A DNA stretch of 64,000 bases from Octopus vulgaris (taxonomy: Eukaryota), in the NCBI GenBank assembly GCA_951406725.2, contig OX597826.1:25482001-25546000 (forward strand), given 5' to 3'. A program made the translations under genes and the position numbers. The notes below the pieces were generated by a model. It saw only the letters and a list, made by a program, of their open reading frames with translations. It was not told where the DNA came from and searched no databases. This document shows positions 6,929 through 29,661 of the stretch, piece by piece (the stretch's first letter is position 1; each line of letters opens with the position of its first letter).

Positions 6929-7144
6929 CAGGCAGTGAGCTGGTAGAATCGTTAGCATGCCGGCTAAAATGCTTAGCGGCATTTCGTCCGTCTTTACGTT
7001 CTGAGTTCAAATTCCGTCGAGGTGGACGTTGCCTTTCATAATTTCGGAGTCAATAAAATAAGTACCAATTGAGAACTGCAGTCGATGTAGTCGATTAAGC
7101 ATCCTCCCCTGAAATTGCTGGCCTTGTGCTAAAATTTGAAACCA
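6929..7144 (+). mobile_element. tRNA-derived SINE, family B monomer with non-Tx1 tail (tail i)
   Basis: Head ggcagtgagctggtagaatcgttagc, B box gagttcaaattcc, Meta-domain-like gcctttcat...ataagtacc, tail ggccttgtgctaaaatttgaaacca. Confidence 0.88.
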
Positions 7145-7214
7145 ACACATATAAGCTTATGTCGTTTGTGGGGTTCGATGGTGCGGGGTATGGAGGCAGA
7201 AAGTCAGTTACGTC

Positions 7215-8070: not shown

Positions 8071-8236
8071 CTATTTCTTTACTACCCACAAGGGGCTAAA
8101 CACAGAGAGGACAAACAAGGACAGACAAACGGATTAAGTGCGTAACTGGTACTTAATTTATCGACCCCGAAAGGATGAAAGGCAAAGTCGACCTCAGCGG
8201 AATTTGAACTCGGAACGTAACGACAGACGAAATACG
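8071..8236 (-). mobile_element. SINE family B (Tx1-type tail), 3' part of the copy interrupted by the LINE
   Basis: Body and tail match array units at 21001-21570; the missing head is at 13502-13564. Confidence 0.9.
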
Positions 8237-8439
8237 AATTTCTTTATTGCCCACCGGGGGCCAAACATAGATATGGACAGTACAACTGATGGGATCAGTG
8301 AATCGATATGATTTTACCGAATGGAATACACAATACAAAAACAATGCAAATGAAGCGATGATCAGGTTACGCTCCGACCCCACAAGCCCCGATCTACCGC
8401 TGATACCTTTTTTTTTTCCCGTCTATTCACACGGTTCCT

Positions 8440-11400
8440 TGCACGCACAACACTCGTGCAACATGCTTCCATCTCTTTTGGAACGTACACTCCGACAGAC
8501 ACCTCTTCTCCAGCCACAGTTTCCTTTTCAAATGAAAAGAAAAAAAAGATCGTAAATTGTGGCCAGAGATAAAGTTGCCTGTCTTAATTCCTTTTATCCT
8601 AGTCTTCCATACTGCCTCTTTTGCTATTGCTACAACCGTGAGAAAACAATTCTTACCTTCGTTCGTTAGAACTCCTGGTGGGTCAATTTTTATAATCGAC
8701 TCAGTCGACAGCTGTACTCTTCCTTCATTTCAGTTATCTCCGGACACTGAACAATAGCGTGAGGGACGGTTTCCCTGTCCCCCACGCAACTTGGACAAGT
8801 CGGCGACTGACGTTTACCATGTCTTGCGAGCTTATCCCAAACGGGCAAGGCACCTCTGTAGCATTGCCAGGTTAAGGACTTTTGGAAGTTGTCCAACGTT
8901 CTCAACCCGAATGTACGATGGAACAGGCTGTCCAGTTGAATAAATCCGAAATCTAGAGTCGACCCCAGACCATCGTCGCATTCAGACTCTACCAACCCAC
9001 TATATAAAATCCGTGTGGAACCCCCACCGGTGGCGTTGCCCGAGCGCCGGAACAGCAAGAGGGCCTTACGGCACTCTTTATGCCACTCACTCGACCTCGG
9101 TCTACGAGAACACCAGGCTTCCTGTTCGCAAAAACTCTTGAACTCAGGGAACATTTGTCTGGCTAGCGGAGACCACACCCGTTCACTATCCAGGAGAATC
9201 CAGAGGTGCCTCAACCTCAACGCATGTCTGCGCATCCTTAACCAAGGCATCCCTAAACCTCCCTTTAAAGGCTTTTGACAGCAGACAGAGCGTTTCACAA
9301 GTGGCGACCTGCCCTTCCACAAAAAGCGAAAGAGCTGTCTCTCCAACCTGATCAACCACAAATCCGGACAGGGCACGACGGTCAGGCGGTAGGTAATGAC
9401 CGATGCGATAAACACATTGGCCACCTCCGCTCTCCATTTCAGGGATAGCCACCGCCAAGACCAGGTCTTGACTACTGCAGCCACCCTGCTCAATACCTCC
9501 GTCCAGTTCTTTTCTATCTGGAGGCCTGGTCCAAACCAGACTCCCAGCAACTTAACCGGTCCCTCCGTCCAGCGCCCAACAACGCTGTCTGAAGGCATCG
9601 ACTTGCCAACCCAGGTGCCGAGCTGCAAGCCGACCGACTTTTCCCGGTTAATCTTTGCTCCTGCTACCTCCTCGTAAGCCTCAATAGTCTTACCTACTTC
9701 ACGTAGGCGTGCTACTCTGGTTACACTGATAGTGATATCATCCGCGAAAGCCGTAATAAACTCCTCTAGTCCTGGTTCTCTCGGGATGCCACTCAACCTT
9801 CGCAGTAATGGCTCGAGAGCCATCACATACAAAAGTGGTGAAAGCGGACATCCTTGACGAACCGAGCGTTTGATGCAGAACGGCTTCGAAAGGAAACCGT
9901 TCACCCGAACTATTGAGTCAATGTTGTGGTACAAAGCGATAAACCCTCTGAGGAAGCCAAGACCCAGGCCAAACCGCGCAAGTACAGTCGCTAGGTATCG
10001 ATGGTCAACCCTATCAAAAGCTTTAGACTGGTCCAAATGCACCAATGCCCCACCTTTGCCAGATTTATTACCAACCTTCTCTATGGTATAGCGAATAAGA
10101 TGGAGGGTATCCTGAATGGTTCTGCCTGGGTTGGCACATGTCTGTGCCTCCCCGACTATACCATTCGCGACACGCGCCAACCTTTTTGCTAGAACCTTGG
10201 TCAAAATCTTCACTTCTGCGTTTAACAGAGTGATGGGCCTGAAATTCTCTAGAACGTCCCCCTTATCCGGGTCCTTTCTGACCAACGTCACTACTCCCCG
10301 GCGCACAGATCTGGGGATAAACCCATTCTGTTTCCAGTTCGCGTACACGTCAGTCAGTAGTTGCCCGAACAAGTCTGGCATATATTTATACAGCTCGTAC
10401 GGAAGACCATCAAGTCCCGGCGACTTACCCGCTTTACAATCGGCCAAAGCCTCCATCACCTGCTCAGGCGTGATTGGCCCTTCGCAAGACTCCGCATCCG
10501 ACCCCGAGAGGCACGGCAGCCCGGCAAGAAAGTCCTCGAGGGCTCTCCCACCACCAGGACCGCCGTCACCTCCGAACAGCTGGACGAAGTACTCCCGAAA
10601 GACCTCACACATTTTCTCGGGTTCGTTTACCAAGACACCATTTTGATTCGTCAAAGACCGAATAGAGGAACTATTTCCTTGCCTAGCTTCCACCACTCGG
10701 GCCCATCCAGCAGCCTTGATTCCTTCACTTTCCATTGCACGTAACTTAGCTCTGGCAATACTTCCCATGTGGTGGGCTTCAAGATGCTGGTTTAACTCCA
10801 GTCTTTTCACCCTCGCTTGGTCTGCATTACCAGTCCTCCAGGCTTCTTCTAGTTCCTTAACTAGACCATCTCCTATTTTACGTCCCTTCTTAGCTAAACT
10901 TATGCAAAACCTAATAGACTCATATTTGATGGCTCTTTTTAGGGCCTACCACCACTTGTTATTAATGATGGTACTTGTTAATGCCCTCTGTATTAACATC
11001 TTGATCCGCTTTCTGTACTCCCCAATCGCCAAAAGGGACGTATTGAGTTTCCAGTAGCCAGATCCCTGTCTATGCAACTTATCTACCGTCAGTTTACAGG
11101 TAACCATCTTGTGGTCACTGTAGCTGACTAGAAAAAACTGTGGACACTCAACTATGGACTTATCTTTTTCTCTAATTAAAATCCTATCTAGATATGTTCT
11201 GGTAGACCCGTCACTATTTGACCACGTCCACTGTGGAGTGTTCGGGTGCTCCAACCTATATGAATCTGCTAGCTGAAATTGACTTAGTATATCACGAAAG
11301 CCTGGGTTACATTTTCTGTTCATGTTCGAGCTCGAGCCAACACAATCTGTGTGCTGCACATATTGTATTAAAGTCTCCTAACAGTACTAGTGAATGCGAC

Positions 11401-11794
11401 GTGGCTAGGAACTTTCCCAGGTCACGAAAATATTCAGTTTGCGGGCCAATAATGTTTGGTGCGTAAATAGTGACTAGCCTGATTGTCTTGCCACAACTGA
11501 ATGTCAGGTCAAGAACGACCAACCTGCCTTCTGGGTCAGAAAAACCAACTTTTTCTCGGCTACCCGGTTTCTTTTTAGTAGGACCAACACCCCACCCCCA
11601 CCTCCTGCCCGACTCGGAGAAACGTATTTCTCGTAGCCGTTCAGGAGGGGGAGCAGATCTCTTGGCCCCTTCACCCGGGTTTCCGTTGCAACAATTACAT
11701 CCAAATTTCTCGACCTGATGTCATTTAGAAAGCGTCCTTGCTTCCAGCTTGACATCAGGCCACGGACATTTATACAACCAATGTGAATAGACAT
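8440..11794 (-). pseudogene. LINE ORF2: APE endonuclease, reverse transcriptase and CCHC finger
   Basis: EN motifs INVRGL, ATETR, IYAPN, LGDFN, YLDRI, SDH, YWKLN split across three ORFs (two frameshifts, stop at 10946); 706-aa ORF 8690-10810 has KSPGLDG, FRPITLLN, DQSKAFDRV, RQGCPLSP, FADDI and CPSC...ETVPHAIVQC; further lesion near 8730. Confidence 0.95.
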
Positions 11795-11805
11795 GACTAA
11801 TCTGT

Positions 11806-13109
11806 TTAATCAGGATTGTCCGGAGGAGGGGGACCCTCCACCTTTTTTTGATCCAGGGTCGGAGGTGGACGGTCTTGGGAAATAGATTTGTCAAAATCCC
11901 GTCTCACCACCGACACAGAATTATCAGGTGGAGGGGGAGTCTCCACCTTTTCCTTTTCTCGCGGGATCGGGGCTGGTAATCCATGAAATATCGACTTGTT
12001 AAAATTTAATTTCATTGAAGATACTGTCTTTCTGTATTTGTTTTGTAAAATTCTATGAATCTTATTTGAGACTTCATATACGTCGTAATTGATAAATTCC
12101 TCTGAAAGGTAATCTTTTTTTTACAGTCTTTATCAGTTGAATGTCTCTCATTAGCTCAGTATCTTTAGTGTATACGGCTAGTATGCTTTTTCCTCTTCTG
12201 GCAGTCTTTTTTGGTCGTTGTTCTGTAGTAGTCGCCGCTCTCGGTTGAGTTGCTGGTTGTATTTTCCTTTTGTTTGTTGTTTTTTTCTCATCTTTTTCTT
12301 CTTTTTCTTCTTCCTCTTTGTCTTTTTTCTCCTCTTCCTCCTCTTCCTCATTTTCCTTGCAGTTCCTTCGAATGTAGTCTAATTGACCACATTAAAAAAC
12401 ATCGAGGTTTTCGACCTTCAACAAACACCACGAGGCTCTCCTCTCCTACCTCAATTGTCTCGGGAATTGCTTGAATTATTTTAGGGTCCGCTTGAATGAG
12501 GAGATTAATTGTTTGACCATCCCAGTGTGCGTTTTCGGTAGCGGTAGCCTGGAGGAGAGTAATTTTTTCTTCCTCTTTGATTAGGACTGCCACCTACAAC
12601 AACATAGCGTCCACTTCCGGTGGGACCCTTGTAATTTTTATTCTGGACGTTCTCATCCCCATATAGGTGGGAATGATCTCCTCGTCGTTCGTTTTCAGTG
12701 TTTCTACTGAGTTCTTTTGTGCTATTTCTTTATTGGTGAACCTTACTTCCACCGTTCTGAATTTCTTGCCTCTTCTCAGATAAACTACGTCGCCCCATAT
12801 TGGCTTTAAGCACTTTTCTATTTTCTCTTCTGACATTCTTTCAATTTTTCTTTTTTGTAAACAATATGTTTTGAAAATTAATGTTTTTTGTTTTTCTTGT
12901 AGTAACTTTTCCGGAGGTTCAATTTTCACAACGTTGTCAGTTATTTTCATCATTTGGCTGTATTTCATAAAGTCTCTCTTATTCGTCGAAAGCAGCCGGG
13001 TTCCACCCCCAGCTGCTAACGCAAAACTTTTTTTCTCATTTTTTGGTTCTGTCTGGATGCTAGGTACATCAATCATTCTTTTCGACACAATGCCCTTGTT
13101 CTCTGGCAA
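11806..13109 (-). pseudogene. LINE ORF1 (Tx1-type nucleic-acid-binding protein)
   Basis: ORFs 12594-13109 and 12348-12593 are in frame, separated by one TAG; frameshifted zinc knuckle CFxCGQLDYIRRNC near 12360-12405; Lys/Glu-rich and Pro-rich C-terminal part. Confidence 0.85.
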
Positions 13110-13501
13110 AGTCGGAAACTCTTCTGGTGAAACTCTTCTGACGAGCTTTCAGACACATCTCCAAAAAAATCAAATATATTATCCATTCTGCTATTCCTTC
13201 TTGTAGCGGGAGAAACCCTTATTTCCCTGTCTGTAGTTGGCTCCTCGCGGACATGTATTTCCTCCTCTGAACAGGAGAAACACATATTTCTGCTCCAACG
13301 GTAGGCTCCTTGCTAGACAACATTCTTCCCCCCAAAGGGGGAATGAACAACGCGTGCTACTACAAGCACTAAGTGTTTTCAAATGAAAACTCCAACAGTT
13401 AAGTTATTCAACAATTTAACAATAAACAACAGTTATTAGAAACAGCAGTTATTAACAATATTAACTCCAAGAAACAGTAATTTTTACCACGAACACATGT
13501 G

Positions 13502-13564
13502 CGGCAGACGAAATACGGCTACGCATTTCGTCTGACGTGCTTACGTTTCTGCCAGCTCGCCGCC
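13502..13564 (-). mobile_element. SINE family B 5' head (A-box half) upstream of the LINE
   Basis: Reads ggcggcgagctggcagaaacgtaagcacgtcagacgaaatgcgtagccgtatttcgtctgccg on the minus strand. Confidence 0.92.
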
Positions 13565-14395
13565 TTATCACCAACAGTCTGTTCTACTGGGATTTCACAC
13601 GTAAAAAAGTCAAGTGGACGGATTTGCACCGATCTCAACGACGAGCTCTCTGGTGTTAGATCAATCAAACTGAGTGTACTCGCTTATCCGGTACACTTCC
13701 ACTTATCTGGTACTCAAATAATCACAACTCTCAAGCAACCGGCACCTAGGAAAAGTAGGTGGAGGAGATAAAAGAACGAATACGTGTTGTTTATTAATCA
13801 AGAGAACTTATGCTAATTTATGCTAATTTATGTTAATTGACATTAACAGAAACTTTTAGCTCGGTGCAGCATTTTCTTTTACAGTATTTACTAGACCTGT
13901 ATGTTATCTTTTTTATGTTTTATTTTTTACTTGTTAGACTGCGACCTTGCTGGGGCACCACCTTGAAAGGCATAGTCGAACAAATCAACATTAGTACATG
14001 TTTTATTTTTGAAGTTTGGTACTAATTTTATCGGTCCCTTTTACCGAACCGCCAGTTTACAGGGACGTAAACAAACAAACATCGGTTGTCAAGTGGTGCT
14101 ACGGAAACAAACAGAATGGTACGCACACATGTATGTATGCACGTATGCATGTATGTATTATGTTGTATGTGTATATCTTTCAGCTTTTAGTCATTTGACC
14201 ACAGCCATGCTGGGGCACTACCTTGAAGATTTTTAGTCGAATGAATCGACCCCAGTATGTATTTTCCCTAAAGCTTGATACTCATCGGTCTCTCTTCCGA
14301 ACTGCTAAGTTATGGGGACGTAAACATACCAACACTGCTTAAACACAGATACAAAGATATATATATATGCTATATATATATATATATATATATAT

Positions 14396-14559
14396 AGGCG
14401 CAGGAGTGGTTGTGTGGTAAGTAGCTTGCTAACCAACCACATGGTTCCAGGTTCAGTCCCACTGCGTGGCATCTTGGGCATATGTCTTCTGCTATAGCCC
14501 CGGGTCGACCAATGCCTTGTGAGTGGATTTGGTAGACGGAAACTGAAAGAAGCCTGTCG

Positions 14560-14598
<39 letters not shown>

Positions 14599-14745
14599 TG
14601 CGGTTCGGCAAAAGAGACCGATAGAATAAGTACTGGGCTTACTAAAAGAATAAGTCCCGGGGTCGATTTGCTCGACTAAAGGCGGTGCTCCAGCATGGCC
14701 GCAGTCAAATGGCTGAAACAAGTAAAAGAGTAAAAGAGTAAAGAG
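14396..14745 (+). mobile_element. SINE family A with internal deletion
   Basis: Head, body and (gagtaaaa)n tail present. Confidence 0.9.
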
Positions 14746-15249
14746 ATATACGCATACTCATACATAGGCACATCTCCATACGCACACATACACATACAAA
14801 CACTCGCTCACACATACGTACTCACAAACTCACCCCCATTCACATGCATGCGCACACACACACCATTCTCACATACATATACTCGCTTGCGCACCTTAGT
14901 TCGTTGGGTCACCGTTATCGTTATTTTTATTATTATCTTCCTTTCATTCAGCCTCTTTTTTCCCGGTCATCTCGTCATACTGGACCGTTGAACTTATCAC
15001 ATTTTTCTCTTTCTCCGTTTTTTTCATTCTCTCTCCGTTTTTTTTTTTTACCTCTTAATCCTTTCTTTCGAGGGTCCTAGGCTCGAAACGTAAAATACTT
15101 TTTCCATTCTTCCCGAAGGTTAAACTAATATACCTGCTTGTTGTTCGTACACCGCTATTCGTCTTTTGTCCTGTGTTGCATAATTCCTTACCTAACCTAA
15201 TTTACCTGTTGTTGTCGTCTGCCGAATTAAAGTAACCTTCCTTTGGTTT

Positions 15250-15600
15250 CCTTTATTCTTTTATATGTTTCAGTCCAATGACTGTGGCCATGTTGAAGCA
15301 CCACCATTATGATCATCTTTCCACTTTCCACCTTTGTCGGAGCGGTTTTTGGTGAAGGATGGAGTTCGATGTTACTGCCCTCTTTTGAGATTCTTGCTTA
15401 GATATTGGTTCATCCGGGATCTCGGTGAGCCAGAGGTCAAGTTCACGTTTGAAAACGTCTACATCCACTCCATGGAGGCACCTCAGATGCTTCGGCAGAC
15501 AGCTAAACAGTGAATAATTTGAGACAAAATCGGTTATTTCTTGTACATCGGACGACCATGTGTAAGCTTCAGTGTTGACACAGACTCTTCCAATGGTTCT
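15250..15600 (-). mobile_element. 3' remnant of a CR1/L2-group LINE whose 3' end matches the family A SINE tail
   Basis: Translates to FxCLPKHLRCLHGVDVDVFKRELDLWLTEIPDEP; ends ggtggtgcttcaacatggccacagtcattggactgaaacatataaaagaataaagg. Confidence 0.75.
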
Positions 15601-15715
15601 TCAGTTGTAATTGTTGTTGTTTTCATCTTCGTCGTAGGAGTGGCTGTGTGATAAGTAGTTTGCTTACCAACCACATTGCTCCGGGTTCAGTCCCACTGCG
15701 TGGCACCTTGAGCTA

Positions 15716-16114
15716 AATATTTCGTCTGCCGCTACGTTCTGAGTTCAAATTCCGCCGAGGTCGACTTTGCCTTTCATCCTTTCGGGGCCGATTAAATAAG
15801 AACCAGTTATGCACTGGAGTCGATATAATCAACTTAATCCGTTTGTCTGTCCTTGTTTGTCCCATCTGTGTGTAGCCCCTTGTGGGCAGTAAAGAAATAA
15901 GAAACGTTAGCACACAGGGCGAAATGTTTAGCGGTATTTCGTCTGCCGTTACGTTCTGAGTTCAAATTCCACCGAGGTCGACTTTGCCTTTCATCCTTTC
16001 GGGGTCGATAAATTAAGTAGCAATTGCGCACTGGTGTCGATGTAATCGACTTAATACCTATGCCTGTCCTTGTTTGCCCCCTCTATGTTTAGTCCCCTGT
16101 GGGCAATAAAGAAA
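15716..16114 (+). mobile_element. SINE family B dimer (Tx1-type tails) following a family A head at 15635-15712
   Basis: Two bodies joined at aaagaaata|agaaacgttagc (~15900). Confidence 0.9.
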
Positions 16115-16254
16115 TTTATATTGTCAAACGCATACCAGTCACCATCTCACCATGTGTTTTTTTTTTCTCTCCTCTTTTTGGATACTGTGGACTATATATA
16201 TAATCGGGCGTGGCTGCTATTTCTAGTTCGTCGATTGACAATTCATAGTTCTCT

Positions 16255-16266
16255 AGCAGCAGCTGC

Positions 16267-16305
<39 letters not shown>

Positions 16306-16465
16306 GGTGGTGGTGGTAGTAGTAGTAACAGAAGCAGTAGCAGCAACAGTAGTAGAAGTAGTAATAACAGAAACAGTAGCAGCAGCAGCAACAGCAGCAA
16401 CAGCAGCAGCAGCAGTAGTAGTAGTAGTTGTAGTAGTTGTAGTAGTAGTAGTAGTAGTAGTAGGT
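16255..16465. repeat. (TAG)n/(TGG)n/(CAG)n microsatellite
   Basis: Direct inspection. Confidence 0.9.
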
Positions 16466-16819
16466 GTTGTTTATCTGTAGGTCAGTGTTGACAAAACAAA
16501 GCTGTGACGTAAGACGTCCGCCGAGCGATTTGTAATTGCTATCGTTGTTCTTGTTGCATTTATTGTTGCATTTATTGTTGTAGCTGTTGTTTATGCTGTT
16601 TTTGTTGTTGTCGTTGTCAAGGTTGTTGTTTTCACTGTTGTAAAATGCACACAGTTTGATAGAGTAGATTCGGCTAAAATATAAATTTACATTGGTGCAC
16701 AGCTGTCAATTTGTTATTAGACAAATATAATCGATCGATCGATTCTAATACAAAATATGGCGATTGGTAATTGCGTTATCGACAACGGCAACTGATCCAA
16801 ATAGAAAGTATAGACGGGA

Positions 16820-17022
16820 CTCTTTTACTTGTTTCATTCATTTGACTGCGGCGAAGCTGGAGCACCGCCTTCAGGCGAGCAAATCGATCCCAGGACTTAT
16901 TCTTTGTAAGTCTAGTACTTATTCTATCGCTCTCTCTTGCCGAACGGCTAAGTTATGGGGACGTAAACACACCAGCATCGGTTGTCAAGCGATGTTGGAG
17001 AGACAAACACAGACACGCAAAC

Positions 17023-17053
<31 letters not shown>

Positions 17054-17222
17054 TATATATACATACATATACATATACATATATACGACGAGCTTCTTTC
17101 AGTTTCCGTCTACCAAATCCACTCACAAGTCTTTGGTCGGCCCGAGGCTATAGTAGAAGACACTTGCCCAAAGTGCCACGCAGTGGGACTGATCCTGGAG
17201 CCATGTGGTTGGTAAGCAAGCT
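16820..17222 (-). mobile_element. SINE family A
   Basis: Reverse complement of family A body and tail. Confidence 0.9.
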
Positions 17223-17473
17223 ATTTTATTTCATTATATTTGCCATAAAGGCAGTACATAGAGTATAGTAGCTTTGCGGGCTGGACAAGGACATTAATGA
17301 AATGAATGATAACGAAAGATGATAAGGATGGGAGAAGATGAAAAGCGCCCGCCGACTTTTGCTTCTCTAAAACATTGTTCTTAAAAACACAAACACAAAA
17401 CGAGGTATTAAACCTGTTACAGTTTTTACAATTTCTTCAATTTTTTGGACTTCATTGTCCATTACAAATAATA

Positions 17474-17620
17474 ACGTTCTGAGTTCAAATTCCGCCAAGG
17501 TCGACTTTGCCTTTCAGCCCTTTCAGGTCCGATAAAATAAGTACCAGTTGAACAATGGGGTCGATATAATCGGCTCATCCCCATCTCCCCCAAGCTGCTC
17601 TTGTGGAAAAAATTTGAAAT
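17474..17620 (+). mobile_element. SINE family B, 5'-truncated, tail i
   Basis: acgttctgagttcaaattccgccaaggtcgactttgcc ... cttgtggaaaaaatttgaaat. Confidence 0.85.
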
Positions 17621-18810
17621 AATTATTTCTACTATAAGGTCAAGGCTTGGCATTTAATCAACTCCGAAAGGATGGAAGACAAAATCAACTTCGACGGAAA
17701 TTGAAGTCCAGCGTGCTATCGATTCTGTGAGATTGTCGCCTACCTCCTCTTCATTAGAGATTATTTCTATGTCTTTATACGCCATTATGTTTGGACAAGT
17801 TTAAAGTGTGAAACCATCTTGATTCTTATTCAACATGGTAATTTGATCTGACCTTTTTCTCCAGCCTTCACAAACCCATAAATTAGCCCACTTCTCCTGA
17901 GGAAAATCACTGCCTCAGACATAAATTTTTATAAGGCCAAGGAGATAGGACGAGTGGGGGGCGGGTAAGGGAAGGAGATTTTGGTATGTCCAGACAAACC
18001 GTCTTGTTTGAATGCTTTACAACTGAGTGTATACCTGAGTTCCATGTGGTAGTGGTGGTGGATATGACAGAGGGGAGGGTAGTGATGGCAGCGGCGAGGG
18101 CAGAGGTGGTCGCGGTGGTAGTGGTGATGACAGCAGTGAGAGTAGTGGTGTCGGCGGCGTGGGCTGTGGTGGTGGTGGTAGTGGTGTTAACCGTAGCAAA
18201 GAATGAAGTAAACCACGCCTGTACAGTCCATACGATAGGATTCCTTACCATTTTATCTACGTCGAGTCGACCCGGATCTAACGTAGAAGACAGTAACAGT
18301 AACCAGAGGTGGTGCACGCAGGAGCGAACCAGGAATCACGTGATTGAGAGGTGAACTTGTTTGTTGTGTTGTTTGTAAACATTTGTTCTTTTCTTTTTAT
18401 CTATTTCTCGAAAACGACCTCATTTTAAACATTTTATATGTCCGAGTGCAAAAGAAAATAAACGAAAGAAAAAAAAGTAAAGTGTTTAAAAGCGTGAATT
18501 CAATGGACAATGACAATGAGAAAAAAGAATTTTTATAGCAACTCGTTCGGGAAAATTTTTGTGAAAAAATATTTCTTACACAATAAAAGACGTGAACGTA
18601 ATGGGGATTACAAAACACAACAGTTGGATTGTCAAATAAATTTGTATTTTTTTTTTTACCTTTCTCCTTGGTACAACATTGTCATGTCTTGAAATTTCAA
18701 AAGCGATAAATAGAAATTGTAGATGAAGAGCAGAACTACAAAAAATTAAAAGAAAGGAAAAAAAGCAGCATAAAGCTTTATAGTAAAAATATTTTTTTGG
18801 TGGCAGGGTT

Positions 18811-19251: not shown

Positions 19252-19523
19252 GCAGGGTTAATTCAAATAACATTGGAAAAGTATTAAAATAAAAGGATGG
19301 GTGGGGCATATACTGAACGAATTTATATGACAACCCAATAAAATAGAGGTAAAATATAAGATTGGCCTCAGGAAGCGGAAAAAAATCCGTGATTAAGAAA
19401 AATGAAATACAATTAAAAGAAGATAATATATATTTTTTTACAGTTATCTTCACAGATTTTCTATAGAAATTAGAGATAGGACTGAAAGTTAGGACATTTC
19501 GTATACGAATACGTCGATGCAAG

Positions 19524-20010
19524 GGATCTTTTCACTTTGACCGGGAGATCTGAAATATAATTTTTTGTAACTAAGCACTTTTAAACTTCGTTTACTGGTA
19601 GAATGTGTCACATAAAACATCTTTTTGTCTTGGCGTTCTTGAGAAAATTCTGTACTTTGTAAGCTATTTGTTGTTAAATTTCTCGTATTTTGGTAATTTC
19701 AACCAATCAATGACGTCTAGTGAGGTGAATACAATTACTGCTGTTGTTTGTCAACAAAAGTTTCGGCGGTGTATATTTCGTTTAAGAAACAGATTGAAAT
19801 GCAATAAAATAGATCGATACTCGGTCGCCGGCACCGGATGCCACAACTTATATGAAATATTAAACATACATTATGAGGGCTAAACCGATTAAAATGATAA
19901 CGATATAGAGGGCATTAGTAAATTATATATTTAACATTAAGGGTGTATATACCAAATTAAATAAGTACTTAGTGTGTAACCCAGATCTGCCAGTCAAAGT
20001 GAAAAGATCC
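19524..20010. mobile_element. Related MITE with GGATCTTTTC TIRs and 8-bp TSD
   Basis: ggatcttttcactttgac / gtcaaagtgaaaagatcc; flanks gatgcaag / gatgcaaa; shares roughly 150 bp of internal sequence with 18811-19251. Confidence 0.88.
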
Positions 20011-20149
20011 GATGCAAATAATAATGATCGATGATAGAGAAATAGGTAAAGGGTGTATATATATATTTCAGGAATTGTTGCTCTTTCTTCAGTGCCACAG
20101 GCAATCCATTAACCGACCAAGAACACATTGCTTAAATAGGCACTAAATT

Positions 20150-20650
20150 TAGTGTGGTGTAACAATTGGATAGACCAACTTTACATATTTGTTGAAAAAA
20201 TTGTGAACCTTTTGGCGATAAAATTGATTCAGCCTTGATAAGAAAAAAAAAAAAGAGAAACCAAAGAGACCTTTCTGTAATAGAGGAGAGATTGTTAGGT
20301 CTTGTCACCAAATATTTGCAAGATCTTGCTGATAAATATATCGAAAGATAAGTAGATGATATTGTTTTGTAGAAGCAAATAATTACAACATGCAAAAAAC
20401 TCTTTACTAATGTATCTGAGTAACAAGATGACCTTTTCAATGCGTGTGCTATATTTTCTTTAGCTTTGGGCGAATCCGAATCTAGCAACTTAAGTTATAT
20501 CATATTACTCAACTAAGCTTATTTATGAGAAACAGTGTCGACAGTTTTAGCCCTTTTGAAGAACTTTTCGGCTTTAAGTAGCCTCCATTGTAAGGCGCGC
20601 TTGTGTAGATGCCAGAAATTGAAAAACCCGTTTTATAATTTTTCAGAGAA
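20150..20650 (+). mobile_element. Degenerate hAT (Charlie/GTF2IRD2-like) transposase remnant
   Basis: FSLALGES resembles the conserved FSLALDES motif; FEELFG downstream; many stops. Confidence 0.45.
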
Positions 20651-20918
20651 GAAAAACGAACAAAAGTAATATTCGACATTACGTTTTCTACTGTCTGAGA
20701 AACCGGCCATTTGTCAGAGAAAACCTCCGAGTAACAGGATGTGGGCTAAAAAACGAAAGATAAAAAACAATGCGAAATATTTGAATAACCCACACTGGTG
20801 AAACAGTGCAGCAATGGAAACATAATTAACGTATTTTGGTTTAATACAAAGATACCCACTCAACCAAAATATTGAGTTGTCTTTTTTTCCGTTATCGCAC
20901 ATATATATTTACATAGAC

Positions 20919-20950
<32 letters not shown>

Positions 20951-21000
20951 AATGAAATAAAAAACAGAACACAAAGGATGTCGCGGTAAACATATATACT

Positions 21001-21570
21001 CGGCGAAATGCCTAGCGGTATTTCGTCTGCCGTTCACCCTGAGTTCAAATTCCGCTGAGGTCGACTTTGCCTTTCATCCTTTCGGGGTCGATAAATTAAG
21101 TACCAGTTACGCACTGGGATCGATATAATCGACTTAATTCGTTTGTCTGTCCTTGTTTGTCCTCTCTGTGTTTAGCCCCTTGTGGGTAGTAAAGAAATAG
21201 GTATTTCGTCTGCCGATACGTTATGAGTTCAAATTCCGCCGAGGTCGACTTTGCCTTTCATCCTTTCGGGGTCGATTAAATAAGTACCAGTTATGCACTG
21301 GGGTCGATATAATCGACGTAATCCGTTTGTCTGTCCTTGTTTGTCCTCTCTGTGTTTAGCCCCTTGTGAGTAGTTAAGAAATAGGAATTTCGTCTACCGC
21401 TACGTTCTGAGTTCAAATTCCGCCGAGGTCGATTTTGCCTTTCATCTTTTTGGGGTTCGATTAAATTAGTGCCAGTTAATCACTGGGGTCGATGTAATCG
21501 ACTTAACCCCCTTGTCTGTCCTTGTTTGTCCCCCTCTATGTTTAGCCCCTTGTGGGCAATAAAGAAATAA
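21001..21570 (+). mobile_element. SINE family B head-to-tail trimer, 184-bp period
   Basis: Units restart at gtatttcgtc (21201) and gaatttcgtc (21385) straight after aagaaatag. Confidence 0.95.
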
Positions 21571-21989
21571 ATATATACACAACACAAGCGCAAATATTCA
21601 TACATACACAAGAGTGTATTCATACAGACACGCGTCATATCAGATGCTTAAAGAACTAAGATATTGTCCGACTGAACATTTGAAGACTACAACTTCGAGC
21701 GTTTACATGTAGAAGAGAGAATAAAACGATCAAATTTCACAGAATACAGTAAATCACTGACTATGGCTTGGTTCAAGCTGTGCTGCAGATAATATGATCG
21801 ATTATCATGGTTACCCAATATCGTCTTTCTTTTTTTCTATTTCGCATTTATCGATCTTGAAATCAGCTCTCAATTTGTGGTCAGAAACTGGATCAGCAAC
21901 TGTAGTAGTTCTCGCACTTTCTCTCTTTTATAGATGCACTTACACAAGCCTATATGTGTATGTGTGTGTGTATCTATTCCTCTCTCAGG

Positions 21990-22780
21990 TAACGAAGGAA
22001 TAGAACTTTTGCAAAAAGAAATCTTTGTATTCAGTTGTTGAACGAAGAAAATCAGTGCTCCAGAACAAAAACCTGTGCGCCAATGCTTTCATTATCTCTA
22101 CCGTCCCACACAAAGACTGCTACAAATACACAGGCATTGATAAAATATACAGAGATACTGTGGCCCGAGAATATTACACCAGATTTTGAAAAATATAAGG
22201 AACTCTCCTTATGCAACAAATCAATACCCCACAGAGCATTTGCAATACAAGTGCCGATATCAACATTAAAGATATTTGACTGGTCTGTAGAGGATATTCG
22301 CTCCATTGCAATTGTGATATCGATAAGCTCTACTTAAGAAGTGATGAAGGCAGTAGAGGATTGAGAGGGCAGTGCTGATAGCGTTCGAATGTTGTATAGT
22401 GTCTTTCAGACTGCACCCGCTAAGCAACAACAGAAAAAATAAGTATGTAATCTTATTGTTGAGAAGCAAAAATAGCAACAGCTTACGTGTTTGCACCGAG
22501 CTCTTTAGGAAGTGATCTTTTCTTTACGACTTCACATACAGCCTCAAAACAGCCCTCAAAAAAAAGGCTTAAGTGTGAAACGTTCAGCATACCATAAAGA
22601 CTATGCGTGCGTGTTTCTCGAAGACTTGAAGACAATGTAAATATCGACATGAAGTGCAACCTTTCTGGGACCTACGATCGTTCCATCACATTACATTTCG
22701 AAAGTTATACGTTTGCAGTACAAGAGCAGGAGATTGCTGCAAAATACCGAGTAAACAAAAGCGGTAGTGAAGCCATTGGA
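21990..22780 (+). mobile_element. Decayed R4/Dong-like non-LTR retrotransposon (post-RT region)
   Basis: Fragmentary motifs in order: YKYTGID, IFDWSVEDI, DIDKLYLRSDEGSRGL, HFESYTFAVQEQEIAAKY. Confidence 0.65.
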
Positions 22781-22889
22781 TCCCCAAGATATCACTTGAG
22801 AATAACTGAGAATGTTTCTCTTTCTCAACTTCTATTTGTATTGTATTTTTTTCTTAGAAATTTCAAAGAGATTAAACAGAGCTATAATC

Positions 22890-23270
22890 TTTTCTACTCT
22901 TGGCACAAGGCCCGAAACTGTTTGGGGAGGGGGGGGGCAGTCGATTACATCGGCCCCAGTACACAACTCGTACTTAATTTATCGACTCGGAAAGGATGAA
23001 AGGCAAAGTCGGCCTCAGCGGAATTTGAACTCAGAACTTAAAGACAGATGAAATACCGCTCAGCCTTTCGCTCGGCGTGCTAAAGTTTCTTATTTCTTTA
23101 TTACCCACAAGGTGCTAAACATAGAGGGGACAAACATGGACAGACAAAGGGATTAAGTCGATTACATCGACCCCAGTGCGTAACTGGTACTTAATTTATT
23201 GATCCCGAAAGGATGAAAGGCAAAGTCGACCTCGGCAGAATTTGAACTCAGAACGTAACGGCAGACGTAT
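22890..23270 (-). mobile_element. SINE family B: Tx1-tailed copy abutting the head of a tail-ii copy
   Basis: Junction aaagaaata|agaaactttagcacg at ~23090. Confidence 0.88.
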
Positions 23271-23499
23271 AATCAAATATAATATCGTAATCCGTAGCAT
23301 GGAAAGATTGGAAGAAACAAAATCCTGAAACTGAAATTCGAATACGAACAGAATTTAAAGAAAAACAAAAATGAAAATAAAAATGCAATACTTTTACTGT
23401 TTGTTTCTTCGAATATACTCTTTTTTCACATCCGGATTTCTGTTGAAGAAACACTTGTATAAATTTCTACAAATTAAACAAACGTAAACAAAGATAATT

Positions 23500-24280
23500 G
23501 TTTCAAATCATGGTAGCAACTTTTGTGGTAGTGGGTAGGGCAAGCCGACTGCATCGGCCTCAGTATTTGATTGGTACTTATTTTATCGACTCCTAAAGGA
23601 CGAAAGCCAAAGTTGATCTCAGCAGTATTTGAACTCAGATTGCAAAGAGCTGGAAGAAATGTGACTATGTATTTTGTCCAGCATGCTAAATATTCTTATT
23701 TCTTTATTGGCCACAAGGGGCTAAACATAGAGGGGACAAAGAAGGATAGAAAAAGGGATTAAGTCGATTACACCGACCCCAGTGCGTAATTTATTGACCC
23801 CGAAAGGATGAAAGTCAAAATTGACCTCGGTGGAATCTGAATTCAGAACGTAACGACAGACGAAATACCTATTTCTTTACTACCCACAAGGGGCTAAACA
23901 CAGAGAGGACAAACAAGGACAGACAAACGGATTAAGTCGATTATATCGACCCCAGTGCGTAACAGGTACTTATTTAATCGACTCCAAAAGGATGAAAGGC
24001 AAAGTCGACCTCGGCGGAATTTGAACTCAGAACGTAGCGGCAGACGAAATACCTATTTCTTTATTACCCACAAGGGGCTAAACATAGAGGGGACAAACAA
24101 GGACAGACATAGGTATTAAGTCGTGTACATCGATCCCAGTGCGTAACTGGTACTTAATTTATCGACCCCGAAAGGATGAAAGGCAAAGTTACCTCGGCGG
24201 AATTTGAACTCAGAATGTAGCGGCAGACGAAATGCCGCTAAACATTTCGTCCGGCGTGCTAACGTTTTGGCCAGCTCACT
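23500..24280 (-). mobile_element. SINE family B: Tx1-tailed trimer (23696-24280) joined to the head of an older tail-i copy
   Basis: Internal junctions at 23869 and 24053 (184 bp apart); final junction at ~23696. Confidence 0.92.
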
Positions 24281-24292
24281 ACTTTAACAAGA

Positions 24293-24570
24293 ATCCTTTC
24301 TACTAGGGGTAGAAGGCCTGAAATTTTGAAGGCGGGGGATAATCGATTATATCGAACCCAGTGCTCAATTGGTACTCATTTCATCGACCCCGAAAGAATG
24401 AAAAATCACAGTCGATCTCGGTGGCACTTGAACTCAGAACTTAAAGACGTACGAAATGTTGCTGAACATTTTGTCCGACATGCTAAAGATTCTGCCAGCT
24501 CACCGCATTATACAACAGAAACAATAATTATTTCTACTCTAGACACAAGGCCTGAAATTTTGTGGGGAGG
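24293..24570 (-). mobile_element. SINE family B with tail ii, plus an isolated tail-ii fragment
   Basis: Tail aatttcaggcctt...tagtagaaagga; head at ~24506; tail-only piece 24530-24570. Confidence 0.8.
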
Positions 24571-25185
24571 GACAAGAAAATAATTATAAAAATGAAAAAA
24601 AGATCGGGTCAAAAATTCAAGCGGAATTTCCGTTCTTTGCGATTTGTAGCTTCCGTTGAAAATTTTTGCCAACGAAGCTGAAATCCTCTCAACAGTAAAC
24701 AGCCTTAACCGCACCAATGTTAGAGATACGATCTAGTGAATATACGTATACAGACCGCAACATATTTCCTTTTTATTACATAGCTTCCATCACTGTATTA
24801 ATTTTTCTTTTGTTCACTGTTTGAAAACATATTTTAGAACAAGACGAGAGTGGAGCAACCTTTTCATTGTCTTTTAAATCTTTTTTGCCTCTTTACTTTC
24901 TTTTCAGGCATTGTACACCCCTTATATGAGTTTAGTTTATTGTTTTTGCTTTTGTTAAAGTTTATTCCTTATTCTAGCGTTCTCTTTTGCCGAACCACTA
25001 ACTAATGGGGATGTAAACAAACCAACAGCGGTTGTCAAGACATGGTAAGGATAGAAGAAGTCGAAGTCTGCTTTCGATTTTTTTCTATTCTACAGGATTT
25101 TTAAACCCATTTATTGCTATTATTTAAATGTATCATTTGTAGCTCTATGTGTGTGCTTCGAGGTATTTCAAAAAAACAACACACT

Positions 25186-25218
<33 letters not shown>

Positions 25219-25219
25219 C

Positions 25220-25438
25220 GTGGCACTCCGTCGGTTACGACGACAAGGGTTCCAGTTGATCCGATCAACGGAACAGCCTGCTCGTGAAATTAACGTGCAA
25301 GTGGCTGAGCACGCCACAGACACGTGTAACCTTAACGTAGTTCTCCTGGATATTCAGCGTAACAAGGCTAGCCCTTTGAAATACGGGTACAACAGAAACA
25401 GGAAGAAAGAGTGAAAGTTGTGGTGAAAGAGTACAGCA
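25220..25438 (-). mobile_element. SINE family C, 3' portion
   Basis: gtggcactccgtcggttacgacgac...gatcaacggaacagcctgctcgtgaaattaacgtg also at 41764 and 56908. Confidence 0.8.
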
Positions 25439-25584
25439 TTAACCAAATTTCATAATCTATAGGAATAATTATAAATAACCCTGACCTCTTCATCAAAGCG
25501 AAAAACTGAATTGCAGCAAATCTTTTATTTTTTAAAGAAAAATAGTTATCAGTCACAAATTAGTTAAAATTCTTTTTTCTATAT

Positions 25585-26180
25585 AGGCAGGGGTGTGGCT
25601 GTGTGGTTGAGGCGCTTGTTTCCAACCACAATGTTCTGAGTTCAGTCCCACTCTGTGGTACCATGGGCAAGAGTCTTCTACTTTAGCCTCAAGCCGACCA
25701 AAGCCTTATGAGTGGATTTGATAGAAGTCCATCCGGTCATTTCAATATGTGACCGCTTGTGTATCGTTGGCGATTTTCTTTCTCTGTCTTCCCTTCTTTG
25801 GTCTTTTTCTATATTTCTGATGAAGAGCTCCGCTCGAAACGTGAAACCATCTTTCTTTCTTTCCTTTCCTGAGCGTCCAATAACACAATACTCGTTCCAC
25901 GTCCTCGCGTTGTTTTTTCCTGCTTGTTCTTGTTTGGATTGATTGTATATGTGTGTGTGTTTGCGTGTGTATCTATGCTTGTCCTCCAAAACCGCTTGAC
26001 AACCGGTGTTGGTACGATTATGTTCCCGTAAATTAGCGGTTCGGCAAAAGAGTTCGATACAATAAGTTTCAAGCTTTAAAGAAAAATAAGTATTGGGGTC
26101 GATTCATTCCACTAAAAATTCTTCAAGGCAGTGCACCAGCATGGCCGCAGTCTAATGACTGAGACAAGTAAAAGCTAGAA
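25585..26180 (+). mobile_element. SINE family A interrupted by a hammerhead-bearing element
   Basis: Head to gagtggatttgataga (~25725), resumes after 25945. Confidence 0.85.
25730..25945 (+). mobile_element. Short Penelope-like non-autonomous element with a minimal hammerhead-like motif
   Basis: CTGATGA(25817) a gagc tcc gctc GAAA cgtga; homologous copies at 44363-44560, 28870-28970, 49220-49315. Confidence 0.7.
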
Positions 26181-26379
26181 GATATACGAATATATTTTGT
26201 GATAAGAAATTCAATTACCTAAGCATCTGCAAACGATGACATTCCGATCCCATCCATATCCTGTAATCGTTGTTTTGACCACGTTTTATCCTACTCCTTA
26301 AAAATAAAAAAAAAAGCAAATAAAAATTAAAAAAACCCAATTAAAATATAAATAAATAAAAAGCTAGAAAGTCAAGTTC

Positions 26380-28570
26380 TTCCACTGCTATATATTTTAG
26401 GTATTTCCCATTTTTTTTCACATTCCTTCCTTTCACTGCTTCGTAGATCCCGTTGACACTTAATTTCAGTGAGATCATCGGTAGTTAAGTCTTTTGATTG
26501 TGAAGCCATTAACGCGATCATATTTTCCTGAATCAACATCTTTAAGACAAGCAAAGCTGTGTGGTTGAGAAATTTGCTTTGCAAACCATATGGTTTCAGG
26601 TTCAGTCCTGCTGCGCTGCATCTTGGGCAAGTGTCTTCACTATGGCCTCGGGGCAGACCAATGCCTTGTGGTTGACGGAGATACAACACTTAAAAGTGAA
26701 AACAAATTATAGTAATAAGTCAAGGAGTCGATTTGTTCGACTAAACCTTCGAAAGCGATACCTGAAAAGCAAGTAAAAGGTAAAAAAAAAAAGTGCCCAT
26801 GACGCCTCTAATGGCACCAAAGTATTGATCGAATTCTTTTAATTTTTTTGATGCCATAAAAGTCATTGAAGTATTTCAGGTTAATGTTTTTCCAGACTGT
26901 TCTCAGATACTATCTCTCACTTCTTCCTAAGACTTAAGGAGGTGTGTAACTGGTTATTTGATGTTAATTATTTGCCAAAAATTTCTGAAAGTGACATCCA
27001 GTTATAACTTTAATTACCTATCTGACAAATCCATCCAATATTCCAATATGATAACCTTCGAATGTAGCTGTAGTTCCTTAATCTGTACTAAGGATATCCT
27101 TTTCTACTCTAGGCACAAGGCCCGATTGCTTGTAGTTTCCATTTAAGATCCATTGGTTAATCGTCTTGATAAATAAGCATCAGTTTTAAATTGGAGTCTT
27201 TCTCAGCTGTTCTTCTTAGTAGCGGAATAAACAGTCTTTTGATGCTTTTAACCAGGTGACAATGCTTCACTTTTACCAAAATACTTCTTGATGGCATTTT
27301 CTTCTAGACAATTCCAGTTTCAATCAAGAACAAATTATCATTGGAATTATTTTATTCCAATTATTTTCTTTAACACAGCAGAATATTTAATTGCAGTAAC
27401 TTTATCTGAATTCGCAATTTTTGTTATTTTCACGGTTTTCATTCCTTTTTGAAATATAGTCTAAGCAACATTTGTAGGTATAATACAGAGTATCTCATAG
27501 TGATGGGGGTACATTTTAAACGCAAGTAACTAGGACTGAAGCATAATTTTTAAATTAATAATATAATTCATAACTAAGGTACATTACGTGACTCCCTGTA
27601 TATTTTTACTCGTTTCAGGTTTTAGACTGCGGCCATGCTGGAGCACCACCTTAAAGGGTTTAGTCGAATAAATCGACATCAGTACTTAGTACTTCTTTTT
27701 TTTTACTCTGTAGTACTTATTTTATCGCTCTCTTTTGTCAAAAACAACTTATTTACGAGAATGTAAACACCGGTTGTCAAGCGATGGAAGAGTGACACAG
27801 ACAAACACGAACACACACACATATGTACATGACAGGCTTCCACACAGTTTTCGTCAACTAAATTCACTCACTAGACATTGGTCGGACCAAGGCTAAAGAA
27901 TAAGACACTTGCCCAAGGTTCCACGCAGCGTGACTGAACCCGCTATCACGGGATTGCAAAGCGAGCTTCTTCACCACACATCAGATGCAGTTCTGTTCAT
28001 AATATTATTGGCCTGAATTGGTATTCGTTGCTAATTACAATCTTGAAACCGTTTTATTAATAATTCTCTTTTCCTTAATCTCAAACATTATTTGGACCTT
28101 AATTCCCACCGCATTGCAAATTTAATGATATTGTTCTTTTCTTACATTGGTTCCCGTACACACTTGTATTGCCCCATACAGTTTACATCGTAGACTCAAT
28201 AAAATCTCTCTTCTGATCTTAGCTTTGTTTTCACCATAATCAAACTTTTTAATAATTTCGAGTTTAACGTCTAGAGTAATAATCTTTCTTTTCATTTTAT
28301 TACTTTCAACAGTTCTTCATGTCAACATGGTTAGGCGGGGGTAATATCTAAACTTCAAAAGAATGTGATAAATTTGTAAGTAAACGGTCCATTCTCACTT
28401 GTGGCCTGCCAGAAACTAAGATGTAGTAACGAAGGTAGGGAAACGATGTCGCCTCAGCTGGTCATTTGCAGCTGTTTACACTCAAAGTATAATAATAAAA
28501 ACACAGCGTACATAAACACCACGGAAAGGTGTAAAATTATCGTCTAAAACTTTTTAATGTGAATTTATTT
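26380..28570 (-). mobile_element. Fragmented Tigger/pogo DNA transposon remnant with nested SINEs
   Basis: N-terminal KRKIITLDVKLEI (~28255-28295) and C-terminal ALMASQSKDLTTDDLTEI (~26460-26520). Confidence 0.6.
27603..27980 (-). mobile_element. SINE family A, diverged
   Basis: gactgcggccatgctggagcaccacc tail; gacacttgcccaaggttccacgcag. Confidence 0.85.
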
Positions 28571-29061
28571 TCTAAAACTCTTTAATTTTTTTTTATTAGG
28601 TTAAAATTTCAGCTTGTAGTAACTCTTAGCGATTGTTTTGTATTTCTTAGCTATATTATCGAGCATTAGATAGTTCATGTTTGGAGTAACTATATATACC
28701 GCACGCTCACACGGACCCCGGCCTTCTGACTGACTTGGATAACCAATTCCTGGATTTTTACACCTACGGATTACTGTTACCATTCATCCGGAATACGCCA
28801 CTGTGATCGTGATTGGAAATCCTCAAAAAATTTGTCCGTGACTCTTCCACTTTTTCTCGTCCTCTAAATCCCCCTTCTTTCTTTCCTTTCCTGAGCGTCC
28901 AATAACACTATACTTGTTCTACGTCCTCACGTTGTTGTGTTTTCTCTTTGTTCATGTTTCGAGTAACTATATTCATCGCTGGTTAAGGCTATGAAAGTAA
29001 CCAAGGTGTAACGCTGGCGTCGGTGAAATGGATGTTGATGTAATCATGCAAGAACATAAAC

Positions 29062-29661
29062 CTATTTCTTTACTACCCACAAGGGGCTAAATACAGAAGA
29101 GACAAACAAGGACAGACAGACGGATTAAGTCGATTATATCGACCCCAGTGCGTAACTGGTACTTAATTTATTGACCCGGAAAGGATGAAAGGCAAAGTCG
29201 ACTTCAGCGGAATTTGAACTCAGAACGTAACGACAGATGAAATATCTATTTCTTTACTACCCACAAGGGACTAAATACAGAGGAGACAAACAAGGACAGA
29301 CAGACGGATTAAGTCGATTATATCGACCCCAGTGCGTAACTGGTACTTAATTTATCGACCCCGAAAGGATGAAAGGCAAAGTCGACTTCAGCGGAATTTG
29401 AACTCAGAACGTAACGACAGATGAAATATCTATTTCTTTACTACCCACAAGGGGCTAAACACAGAGTAGACAAACAAGGACAGACAAAGGGATTAAGTCG
29501 ATTATATCGACCCCAGTGCGTAACTGGTAATTAATTTATCGACCCCGAAAGGATGAAAGGCAAAGTCGACCTCAGCGGAATTTGAACTCACAACGTAACA
29601 ACAGACGAAATCCCGCGAAGCATTTCGCTCGGCGTGCTAACGTTTCTACCAGCTCGCCGCC
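29062..29661 (-). mobile_element. SINE family B trimer with one complete head, 184-bp period
   Basis: Junctions at 29246 and 29430; head ggcggcgagctggtagaaacgttagcacg. Confidence 0.95.

What the first reader, a model, noticed from the sequence alone, without database searches (positions are those of the whole stretch)
8071..29661. Self-targeting retroposon circuit: a Tx1 LINE targets SINE B, and SINE B carries the LINE's tail and inserts into itself
Seen: (1) the LINE splits a SINE B head with a 16-bp TSD; (2) some SINE B copies end in the LINE's 3' end; (3) only those copies form arrays, and six internal junctions (21200, 21384, 23869, 24053, 29246, 29430) lie at the position where the LINE 3' end joins its host (8236/8237). 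Known: Tx1-clade elements often have sequence-specific endonucleases (Tx1L in Tx1D, Keno in U2, Mutsu in 5S rDNA, Dewa in tRNA arrays), and SINEs borrow LINE enzymes through shared 3' ends. Inference: by capturing the tail of the LINE that attacks it, the SINE became both passenger and target, so retroposition builds 184-bp arrays and each new unit adds a new target. I cannot tell from the sequence whether this is already catalogued.
Basis: partly seen in the sequence, partly recalled or inferred. Interest (0 to 1): 0.92.

Follow-up and report, generated by a model that had tools for sequence, protein, structure and literature searches.

The report
LINE and SINE target the SINE
In this probably octopus genome a long jumping gene sits almost only at one exact spot inside a very common short repeat, and copies of that repeat bearing a similar tail are often found at the same spot in each other, likely because they borrow the long gene's enzymes, so the passenger would keep building landing sites for itself and its carrier.

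Summary
Observation confirmed; interpretation mostly supported, with corrections. In 66 of 69 distinct LINE copies the 3' end is followed by SINE B from position 49. In 1.2 Mb of unselected DNA, 36 of 94 LINE-tailed (tail iii) SINE ends join position 49, against 0 of 96 other tails; 23,220 exact junctions genome-wide. Self-insertion is shown by full-length tail-iii copies inside older SINE B hosts with 13-16-bp host-type duplications; 6 of 7 loci picked by their 5' joint alone had the predicted 3' joint, two at array junctions. Corrections: longer arrays, including 29062-29662, were partly expanded locally; a second site (position 16) exists; most tail-iii copies land elsewhere, often at GGTA; the upstream half of the LINE's 16-bp repeat is likely carried by the LINE RNA; 15 truncated LINEs lack a host head, unexplained. 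Tx1 membership rests on domains and one named hit, not a tree. Closest known: crocodilian Tx1-Mar/SINEU, which share a Mariner target, not the SINE itself. Not found in nine paper searches; Repbase and Dfam unseen. The scan noted this system before on other DNA of this genome.

The parts
13502..13565 (-). SINE B head, positions 1-64, upstream of the LINE; 13502-13517 is the upstream copy of the 16-bp repeat (positions 49-64)
   Evidence: same head through position 64 before all 36 LINE copies seen with an intact 5' end
8237..13501 (-). Full-length LINE of the L1/Tx1 group, about 5.3 kb; this copy is broken by frameshifts, stops and deletions
   Evidence: median 3.5% pairwise distance among 14 full-length copies
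11800..13250 (-). ORF1 region (approximate ends, interrupted here); a related copy carries a CCHC zinc knuckle
   Evidence: zf-CCHC E 8.7e-5 in L039
8690..11794 (-). ORF2 region (interrupted here): apurinic-type endonuclease, reverse transcriptase, zf-RVT
8237..8284 (-). LINE 3' end shared with SINE tail iii; contains AATAAA
8071..8236 (-). Host SINE B body from position 49 with tail iii (19-bp internal deletion); 8221-8236 is the downstream copy of the 16-bp repeat
15717..16115 (+). Two tail-iii units joined at position 16 (junction 15900, 217-bp period); first unit headless, fused to a fragment of another SINE
21003..21569 (+). Three-unit 184-bp array, junctions 21200 and 21384; units 8-14% apart, mixed tail subtypes, so probably independent insertions
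22890..23267 (-). 5'-truncated tail-iii unit joined at position 16 (23090) of a tail-i SINE B
23500..24277 (-). Head plus three tail-iii units (junctions 24053, 23869; units 10-14% apart), then a position-16 joint (23696) into an old, degenerate SINE B
29062..29662 (-). Head plus three tail-iii units, junctions 29430 and 29246; units 2.4-6% apart with shared private changes, so probably locally duplicated
6930..7146 (+). Solo SINE B with old tail ii (control type, not followed by a SINE unit)
24290..24506 (-). Solo SINE B with old tail i (control type)
59742..59895 (-). 5'-truncated solo tail-iii copy at a non-SINE (TA repeat) site

Best explanation
A LINE of the L1/Tx1 group sits at position 48|49 of SINE B, and a SINE B subfamily with a LINE-like tail likely uses that enzyme lineage to insert at the same site in other SINE B copies, seeding head-to-tail 184-bp arrays that in part were likely lengthened later by local duplication. 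Steps. (a) Shown: shared site, shared tail, 13-16-bp host-type duplications around full-length SINE-in-SINE insertions. (b) Inferred from known target-primed reverse transcription: the endonuclease nicks before position 49 and cuts the other strand about 16 bases on. (c) Inferred: the RNA runs a few bases into its old target and those bases are copied or pair with the new target, because the base at position 49 follows the element, not the host. (d) Inferred: when donor and host are alike, the cDNA's 5' part pairs with the host head, so exactly one headless 184-bp unit is added and donor bases overwrite positions 49-64 and a variable part of the head; when they differ, a plain joint leaves two heads. 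(e) Shown: the new tail|position-49 junction is itself used as a target. (f) Shown as a pattern, mechanism inferred: longer arrays hold near-identical neighbours, as from unequal exchange.
For: LINE 3' flanks: 29 of 30 (query left out the last 13 bases and the flank) and 37 of 39 distinct further copies (35 by cut-off, L162 and L194 by eye; duplicate L171 dropped). The 3 exceptions begin with target-like bases, one (L021) with a 13-bp duplication. Hosts are varied: tails i, ii, iii and several subtypes. Truncated LINEs abut a head or array unit at seven different break points (L003, L034, L166, L181, L182, L189, L195); in L182 both copies of an 11-bp duplication share a private base. SINE: 36 of 94 versus 0 of 96; 23,220 of 101,678 exact tail ends. 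Double-head insertions: 7 of 64 head-bearing first units, one doubtful; 6 of 7 loci chosen by the 5' joint alone end in tail iii plus position 49 of an old-type body, L276 and L277 at array junctions. Off-target tail-iii flanks start GGTA in 18 of 48 (background 0.26%) and the GGTA lies inside the duplication (14 of 27 solos with a duplication, 1 in the shifted control). RNA-carried bases: 0 of 58 old-tail heads have C at 49, yet LINEs in tail-i hosts L161, L164, L176 have C there. Overwriting: before old-type hosts the upstream copy of position 60 is donor-type in 24 of 25 (a few of these are double-head cases). Old last units are more decayed than first units in 10 of 13 arrays (p 0.03).
Against: 15 truncated LINE copies have a SINE body downstream but no head directly upstream and no duplication around LINE plus body; unexplained. 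LINE 3' UTR distance and downstream body distance correlate weakly (rho 0.24; pairs not independent), as some co-mobilisation would give. The window's LINE subfamily is younger (3.5% pairwise) and far rarer (66 exact 3' ends) than tail iii and ends in a different last base, so the true partner may be an older relative. The tail subtype closest to the LINE uses position 16 more than 49 (67 of 100 listed position-16 joints versus 3 of 100 listed position-49 joints). L273 broke the prediction (tail i after the donor head). In arrays made only of tail iii there is no age gradient (13 versus 12 of 27). No empty orthologous site and no biochemistry.
Confidence: 0.82

Rival explanations
1. Arrays and LINE-plus-SINE composites are copies of a few multimeric or chimeric source elements that retropose as one RNA; the site was hit only rarely.
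For: No run of four T in the SINE copy checked, so read-through of arrays is possible; all full-length LINEs carry the same head variant and the same 5' joint; 15 headless truncated LINEs; weak UTR-body correlation.
Against: Downstream bodies differ in tail class and are more diverged than the LINE UTR (7.2% versus 4.4% outside CpG); seven separate truncation points abut a head or unit; double-head insertions carry host-type duplications; dimer units are as unlike as random pairs in 18 of 20. It probably contributes, but cannot be the whole.
Confidence: 0.1
2. Arrays arise by local unequal crossover or slippage of a SINE monomer; the match to the LINE site is incidental.
For: Near-identical neighbours: 11 of 49 adjacent pairs within 4.5% against 0.7% of between-array pairs; a 10-junction run on C1; the window's 29062-29662 array.
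Against: Cannot put a young tail-iii unit before an old tail-i or tail-ii body (13 of 96 in unselected DNA; 234 exact joints of one old-type start), cannot make double heads, and gives no reason for a fixed phase or for 0 of 96 with other tails. It explains growth, not seeding.
Confidence: 0.04
3. The endonuclease has little specificity; site choice comes wholly from pairing of the RNA's read-through bases with any nick, or from reverse transcriptase jumping between SINE RNAs.
For: Off-target starts track the element: CGTA for LINE subfamily 1 (L021), GGTATT for subfamily 2 (L178, L198), GGTA for the common SINE tail subtype, AGA for the subtype that uses position 16.
Against: 66 of 69 LINE copies at one base and a recurrent 16-base stagger are hard to get from chance nicks; jumps between RNAs would join a tail to a 5' end (position 1), not to position 49. 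Not excluded as a co-determinant.
Confidence: 0.04

Closest known systems
Crocodilian Tx1-Mar LINEs and SINEU-1/2/3 (Kojima 2015, PMC4494074; passages and section 15 read)
   Same: A Tx1 LINE and its passenger SINE share a target inside another repeat; tandem SINEU-3 copies are read as sequential insertions; SINE preference is partial (13-90%).
   Different: Their target is a third element (Mariner-N4_AMi). Here the target lies in the passenger's own head, so insertion renews the site, and most units lose their head on joining.
Tx1L in Tx1D, Keno in U2 genes, Kibi/Koshi in microsatellites (as described in PMC4494074); Dewa and Mutsu
   Same: Endonuclease-bearing Tx1-type LINE at one base of a multicopy target.
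   Different: Targets are a DNA transposon, RNA genes or simple repeats, none a SINE carrying the LINE's tail.
R2 with co-transcribed target sequence (noted in PMC4494074 discussion; details of homologous 5' joining recalled)
   Same: Flanking target sequence in the RNA strengthens site-specific integration; fits the head carried by full-length LINEs and the donor-type upstream repeat.
   Different: R2 uses a restriction-like endonuclease and an rDNA target; here the enzyme is apurinic-type and the target a SINE.
SINE-derived satellites of squamates (PMC10702118) and tandem SINEs of bivalves (PMC11481361); passages read
   Same: Short head-to-tail SINE arrays; unequal recombination invoked for growth.
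   Different: No fixed insertion site set by a partner LINE in the passages read; here seeding is by site-specific insertion at tens of thousands of loci.

Membership tests
L1/Tx1 group non-LTR retrotransposon | ORF2 with N-terminal apurinic-type endonuclease, reverse transcriptase and zf-RVT, no RNase H | tested here: met
   (PF03372, PF00078, PF13966 above cut-off in copy L044, no other family); for the window copy
L1/Tx1 group non-LTR retrotransposon | Separate ORF1 with CCHC zinc knuckle | tested here: met
   (L039, E 8.7e-5, above cut-off)
Tx1 clade | Reverse transcriptase groups with Tx1L/Keno/Dewa rather than with L1 | tested here: inconclusive
   Best named hit is an automatically labelled 'Transposon TX1 149 kDa protein' at 322 bits versus 209 bits for human L1 ORF2; no curated references, no tree built
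Sequence-specific non-LTR retrotransposon | More than 20% of flanks in one repeat (criterion in PMC4494074) | tested here: met
   66 of 69
Sequence-specific non-LTR retrotransposon | Endonuclease cleaves the target selectively | not testable with these tools
   needs an in vitro assay
LINE-SINE pair with shared 3' end | 3' tail homology | tested here: met
   28 of 34 and 36 of 42 bases
LINE-SINE pair with shared 3' end | Same insertion signature (site and duplication length) | tested here: met
   position 49 and GGTA starts; 13-16-bp duplications ending near position 64
LINE-SINE pair with shared 3' end | Conserved 3' stem-loop recognised by the reverse transcriptase | tested here: inconclusive
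   three 54-nt ends fold no better than shuffles (z 0.34 to -1.34) and not alike
tRNA-derived SINE | tRNA-like head with A and B boxes | tested here: inconclusive
   no ARAGORN call, no Rfam match to E 10, strict box patterns not matched, a B-box-like word at position 76
Named octopus SINEs (OK, OR1, OR2) or tRNA-Deu/Nin class | Sequence match to the published consensus | not testable with these tools
Tx1-Mar/SINEU-type system | Shared target is a third element (Mariner) and SINE head is snRNA-derived | tested here: not met
   target is the SINE's own head; no Rfam snRNA match. It works like this system but is not a member.

The most novel reading that the evidence does not exclude
A closed two-way loop with an inherited address: the SINE supplies the LINE with its target and with the 5' head its transcript starts in, the LINE lineage supplies the SINE's enzymes, and each element's landing site is passed on by the few target bases its RNA reads through (C or G at position 49; position 49 or 16 by tail subtype), so site specificity is inherited from where the source copy sits and is renewed with every insertion.
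Probability: 0.35. Interest if true: 0.85.

Novelty: new variant of a known kind. Interest (0 to 1): 0.66.

Why it matters
Site-specific LINEs usually rely on a target that the host or another transposon maintains. Here the target is made by the LINE's own passenger, a positive feedback that has left at least 23,220 exact junctions and channels insertions into existing repeats. It gives a concrete route from a dispersed SINE to satellite-like arrays, and thousands of natural insertions with distinguishable donor and host alleles, which makes 5' joining and the role of RNA read-through in target choice countable in one genome. It also warns that headless 184-bp units will be mis-annotated as separate SINE families or satellites.

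Tried and rejected
Head-allele test for host-head retention: first-in-array heads carry T at position 44 more often than solos (22 of 26 versus 4 of 16 for one tail subtype with all loci, p 2e-4; not significant in unselected DNA alone, 16 of 22 versus 17 of 29). Downgraded, because donors in double-head insertions also carry T in 9 of 13. An 'escape and re-targeting' arms race built on it was dropped for the same reason. Empty orthologous sites: contigs of public runs laid twice; no piece bridges the locus, no verdict; they show only that LINE pieces and the tail|position-49 joint exist in coded organisms C, D, E and F. No RNA holder listed. A non-autonomous 520-bp derivative suspected from L182/L198 proved to be another repeat inserted into a short LINE fragment. 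No duplication found around 15 headless LINE-plus-body composites. No tRNA or Rfam match for the head; no shared tail fold. Rows dropped before counts: overlapping loci L132, L141, L149, L152, L154, L156, L157, L258; duplicate L171; cores within 100-140 bases of a locus end or with under 45 aligned bases. 7 of the 66 exact LINE ends were not fetched.

Full report
Setting. The window lies in G000, 2.8 Gb. That it is an octopus is inferred from recalled SINE sequences and the wording of earlier notes, not from a name in any call. Positions below count along the SINE B copy at window 29662-29430 (head 1-48, body 49-167, tail 168-232).

Observation. The LINE spans 8237-13501 on the minus strand, between a SINE B head and the rest of that SINE, with a 16-bp repeat (one mismatch) at 8221-8236 and 13502-13517. 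The six array junctions are all position 49, the LINE's own 3' junction. Tail iii matches the LINE's last 34-48 bases. Three more junctions in the window join tail iii to position 16.

The LINE. Related copies have ORF1 with a CCHC knuckle and ORF2 with endonuclease, RT and zf-RVT; the window copy is broken. The best named relative is labelled Tx1 (322 bits), human L1 ORF2 scores 209; Tx1 membership is likely but no tree was built. 29 of the 30 best 3' UTR hits are followed by SINE B from position 49. Of 66 exact 3' ends I saw 59; the 40 new ones gave 37 of 39 distinct copies at position 49, two of them judged by eye. Total 66 of 69, window copy included; the three others start with target-like bases. 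Hosts include tails i, ii and iii. All 36 copies with an intact 5' end follow a SINE head through position 64, nearly always of one head variant, even when the downstream body is of an old type whose heads never show that variant (0 of 58). So the upstream half of the '16-bp TSD' is likely brought by the LINE RNA, though its end point equals the stagger seen in SINE insertions. Truncated copies next to a head or array unit have duplications of 1-11 bp, one of about 39 bp. Fifteen truncated copies have no head upstream and no flanking duplication; several abut other repeats and one an inverted ORF1 piece; this remains open.

The SINE. In 120 stretches of 10 kb taken at round coordinates, 250 SINE B cores were found: 94 tail iii, 37 tail i, 59 tail ii, 60 untyped. 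Tail iii was followed by position 49 in 36, position 16 in 10, other DNA in 48; tails i/ii by position 49 in 0 of 96, by a head start in 5. Genome-wide exact counts: 101,678 tail-iii ends, 23,220 with position 49, 1,347 with position 16; exact matching undercounts junctions. Non-SINE flanks start GGTA in 18 of 48, and solos carry 9-21-bp duplications (14 of 27, control 1) that include it, so the preference is in the target DNA.

Self-insertion. 13 of 96 old-tail bodies are headless and preceded by tail iii. Full-length donors inside hosts, with two heads and a 13-16-bp host-type duplication, were seen in 7 of 64 head-bearing first units, one doubtful. Seven loci found by the 5' joint alone gave the predicted tail iii plus old-type position 49 in six; two sit at array junctions; L273 has tail i instead. 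Most composites have a single head, and there the upstream positions 60-64 are donor-type (24 of 25 at position 60), while 3 of 8 heads before tail-ii hosts keep host-type bases at positions 20 and 37 (position-37 A in 0 of 17 solo donors). That fits joining by pairing of cDNA with the host head (inferred). In L244 the upstream copy keeps host C at 51 and the downstream copy has T, which fits read-through bases being copied at the 3' joint (inferred).

Growth. Of 54 arrays (40 dimers, 10 trimers, 4 tetramers as linked by the script), adjacent tail-iii units are within 6% in 2 of 20, 8 of 17 and 8 of 12 pairs, against 4.9% between arrays; in unselected DNA alone 3 of 18. The 21003 and 23697 arrays look independently built, the 29062 array locally duplicated.

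Known systems. Closest is Tx1-Mar with SINEU (PMC4494074, passages and section 15): shared target, tandem insertion, but the target is a Mariner element. SINE arrays in squamates and bivalves (PMC10702118, PMC11481361; passages) are ascribed mainly to recombination. A 2026 octopus repeat annotation (PMC13282606; part 1 of 3 and a term search) lists L1-Tx1 families and has no occurrence of 'target' or 'nested'; its supplements were not seen. Passages only were read of PMC4758252, PMC3747384, PMC4824008, PMC8967140, PMC5804259; other papers were seen as listings. Nine searches showed no report of a SINE targeted by its own partner LINE; subscription journals, Repbase and Dfam were not searchable.

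Earlier notes. Eight notes of this scan describe the same system on other pieces of this genome; they are not independent support. My reading was recorded before the look-up; the notes gave the leads on double heads and overwriting, which I then tested.

Verdict. Real, genome-wide, and a new variant of the Tx1 LINE-SINE shared-target theme; insertion pattern well supported, enzyme partner and RNA-level mechanism inferred.

Noticed in passing
window 15900, 23090, 23696; L127:779-1864: Second insertion site at SINE position 16 (217-bp period), 1,347 exact joints, used mainly by the tail subtype closest to the LINE; no LINE copy seen there.
   Followed up: partly
L022, L024-L030, L047, L165, L170: An older LINE subfamily with a different 5' region, followed by G rather than C at position 49 and more often in old-tail hosts; two full-length copies have a 10-base repeat at the 5' joint.
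   Followed up: partly
G000:C3:153112106 and 153118556 (L171, L016/L043): A 6,450-bp tandem duplicate holding the whole LINE with identical flanks; assembly artefact or recent duplication.
   Followed up: no
G000:C1:4676262-4677965 and C1:4607428-4608382: Runs of 10 and 6 exact junctions at 184-187-bp spacing, satellite-like.
   Followed up: no
L010, L015, L195: A tail-iii subfamily with a 10-bp deletion and a changed tail end, recurring as LINE host.
   Followed up: no
L182, L198, L081, L093, L100, L164, L223: An unrelated repeat of about 375 bp, 91-94% alike, twice inserted into short LINE 3' fragments.
   Followed up: partly
L082, L277, L165: Short stutter of the tail end (an extra GAAATA) at some junctions, as from slippage at priming.
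   Followed up: no
window 1417-1900, 14398-14720, 60693-61180 and others: A second abundant SINE family with a central (TA)n/(TG)n tract; a fragment of it is fused to the first unit at 15717.
   Followed up: no
window 35145-35615 versus 34623-35148: ORF list shows a long low-complexity stretch repeated in inverted orientation.
   Followed up: no
window 43369-43854: Frame that looks like a mariner transposase fragment (by recall, not searched).
   Followed up: no
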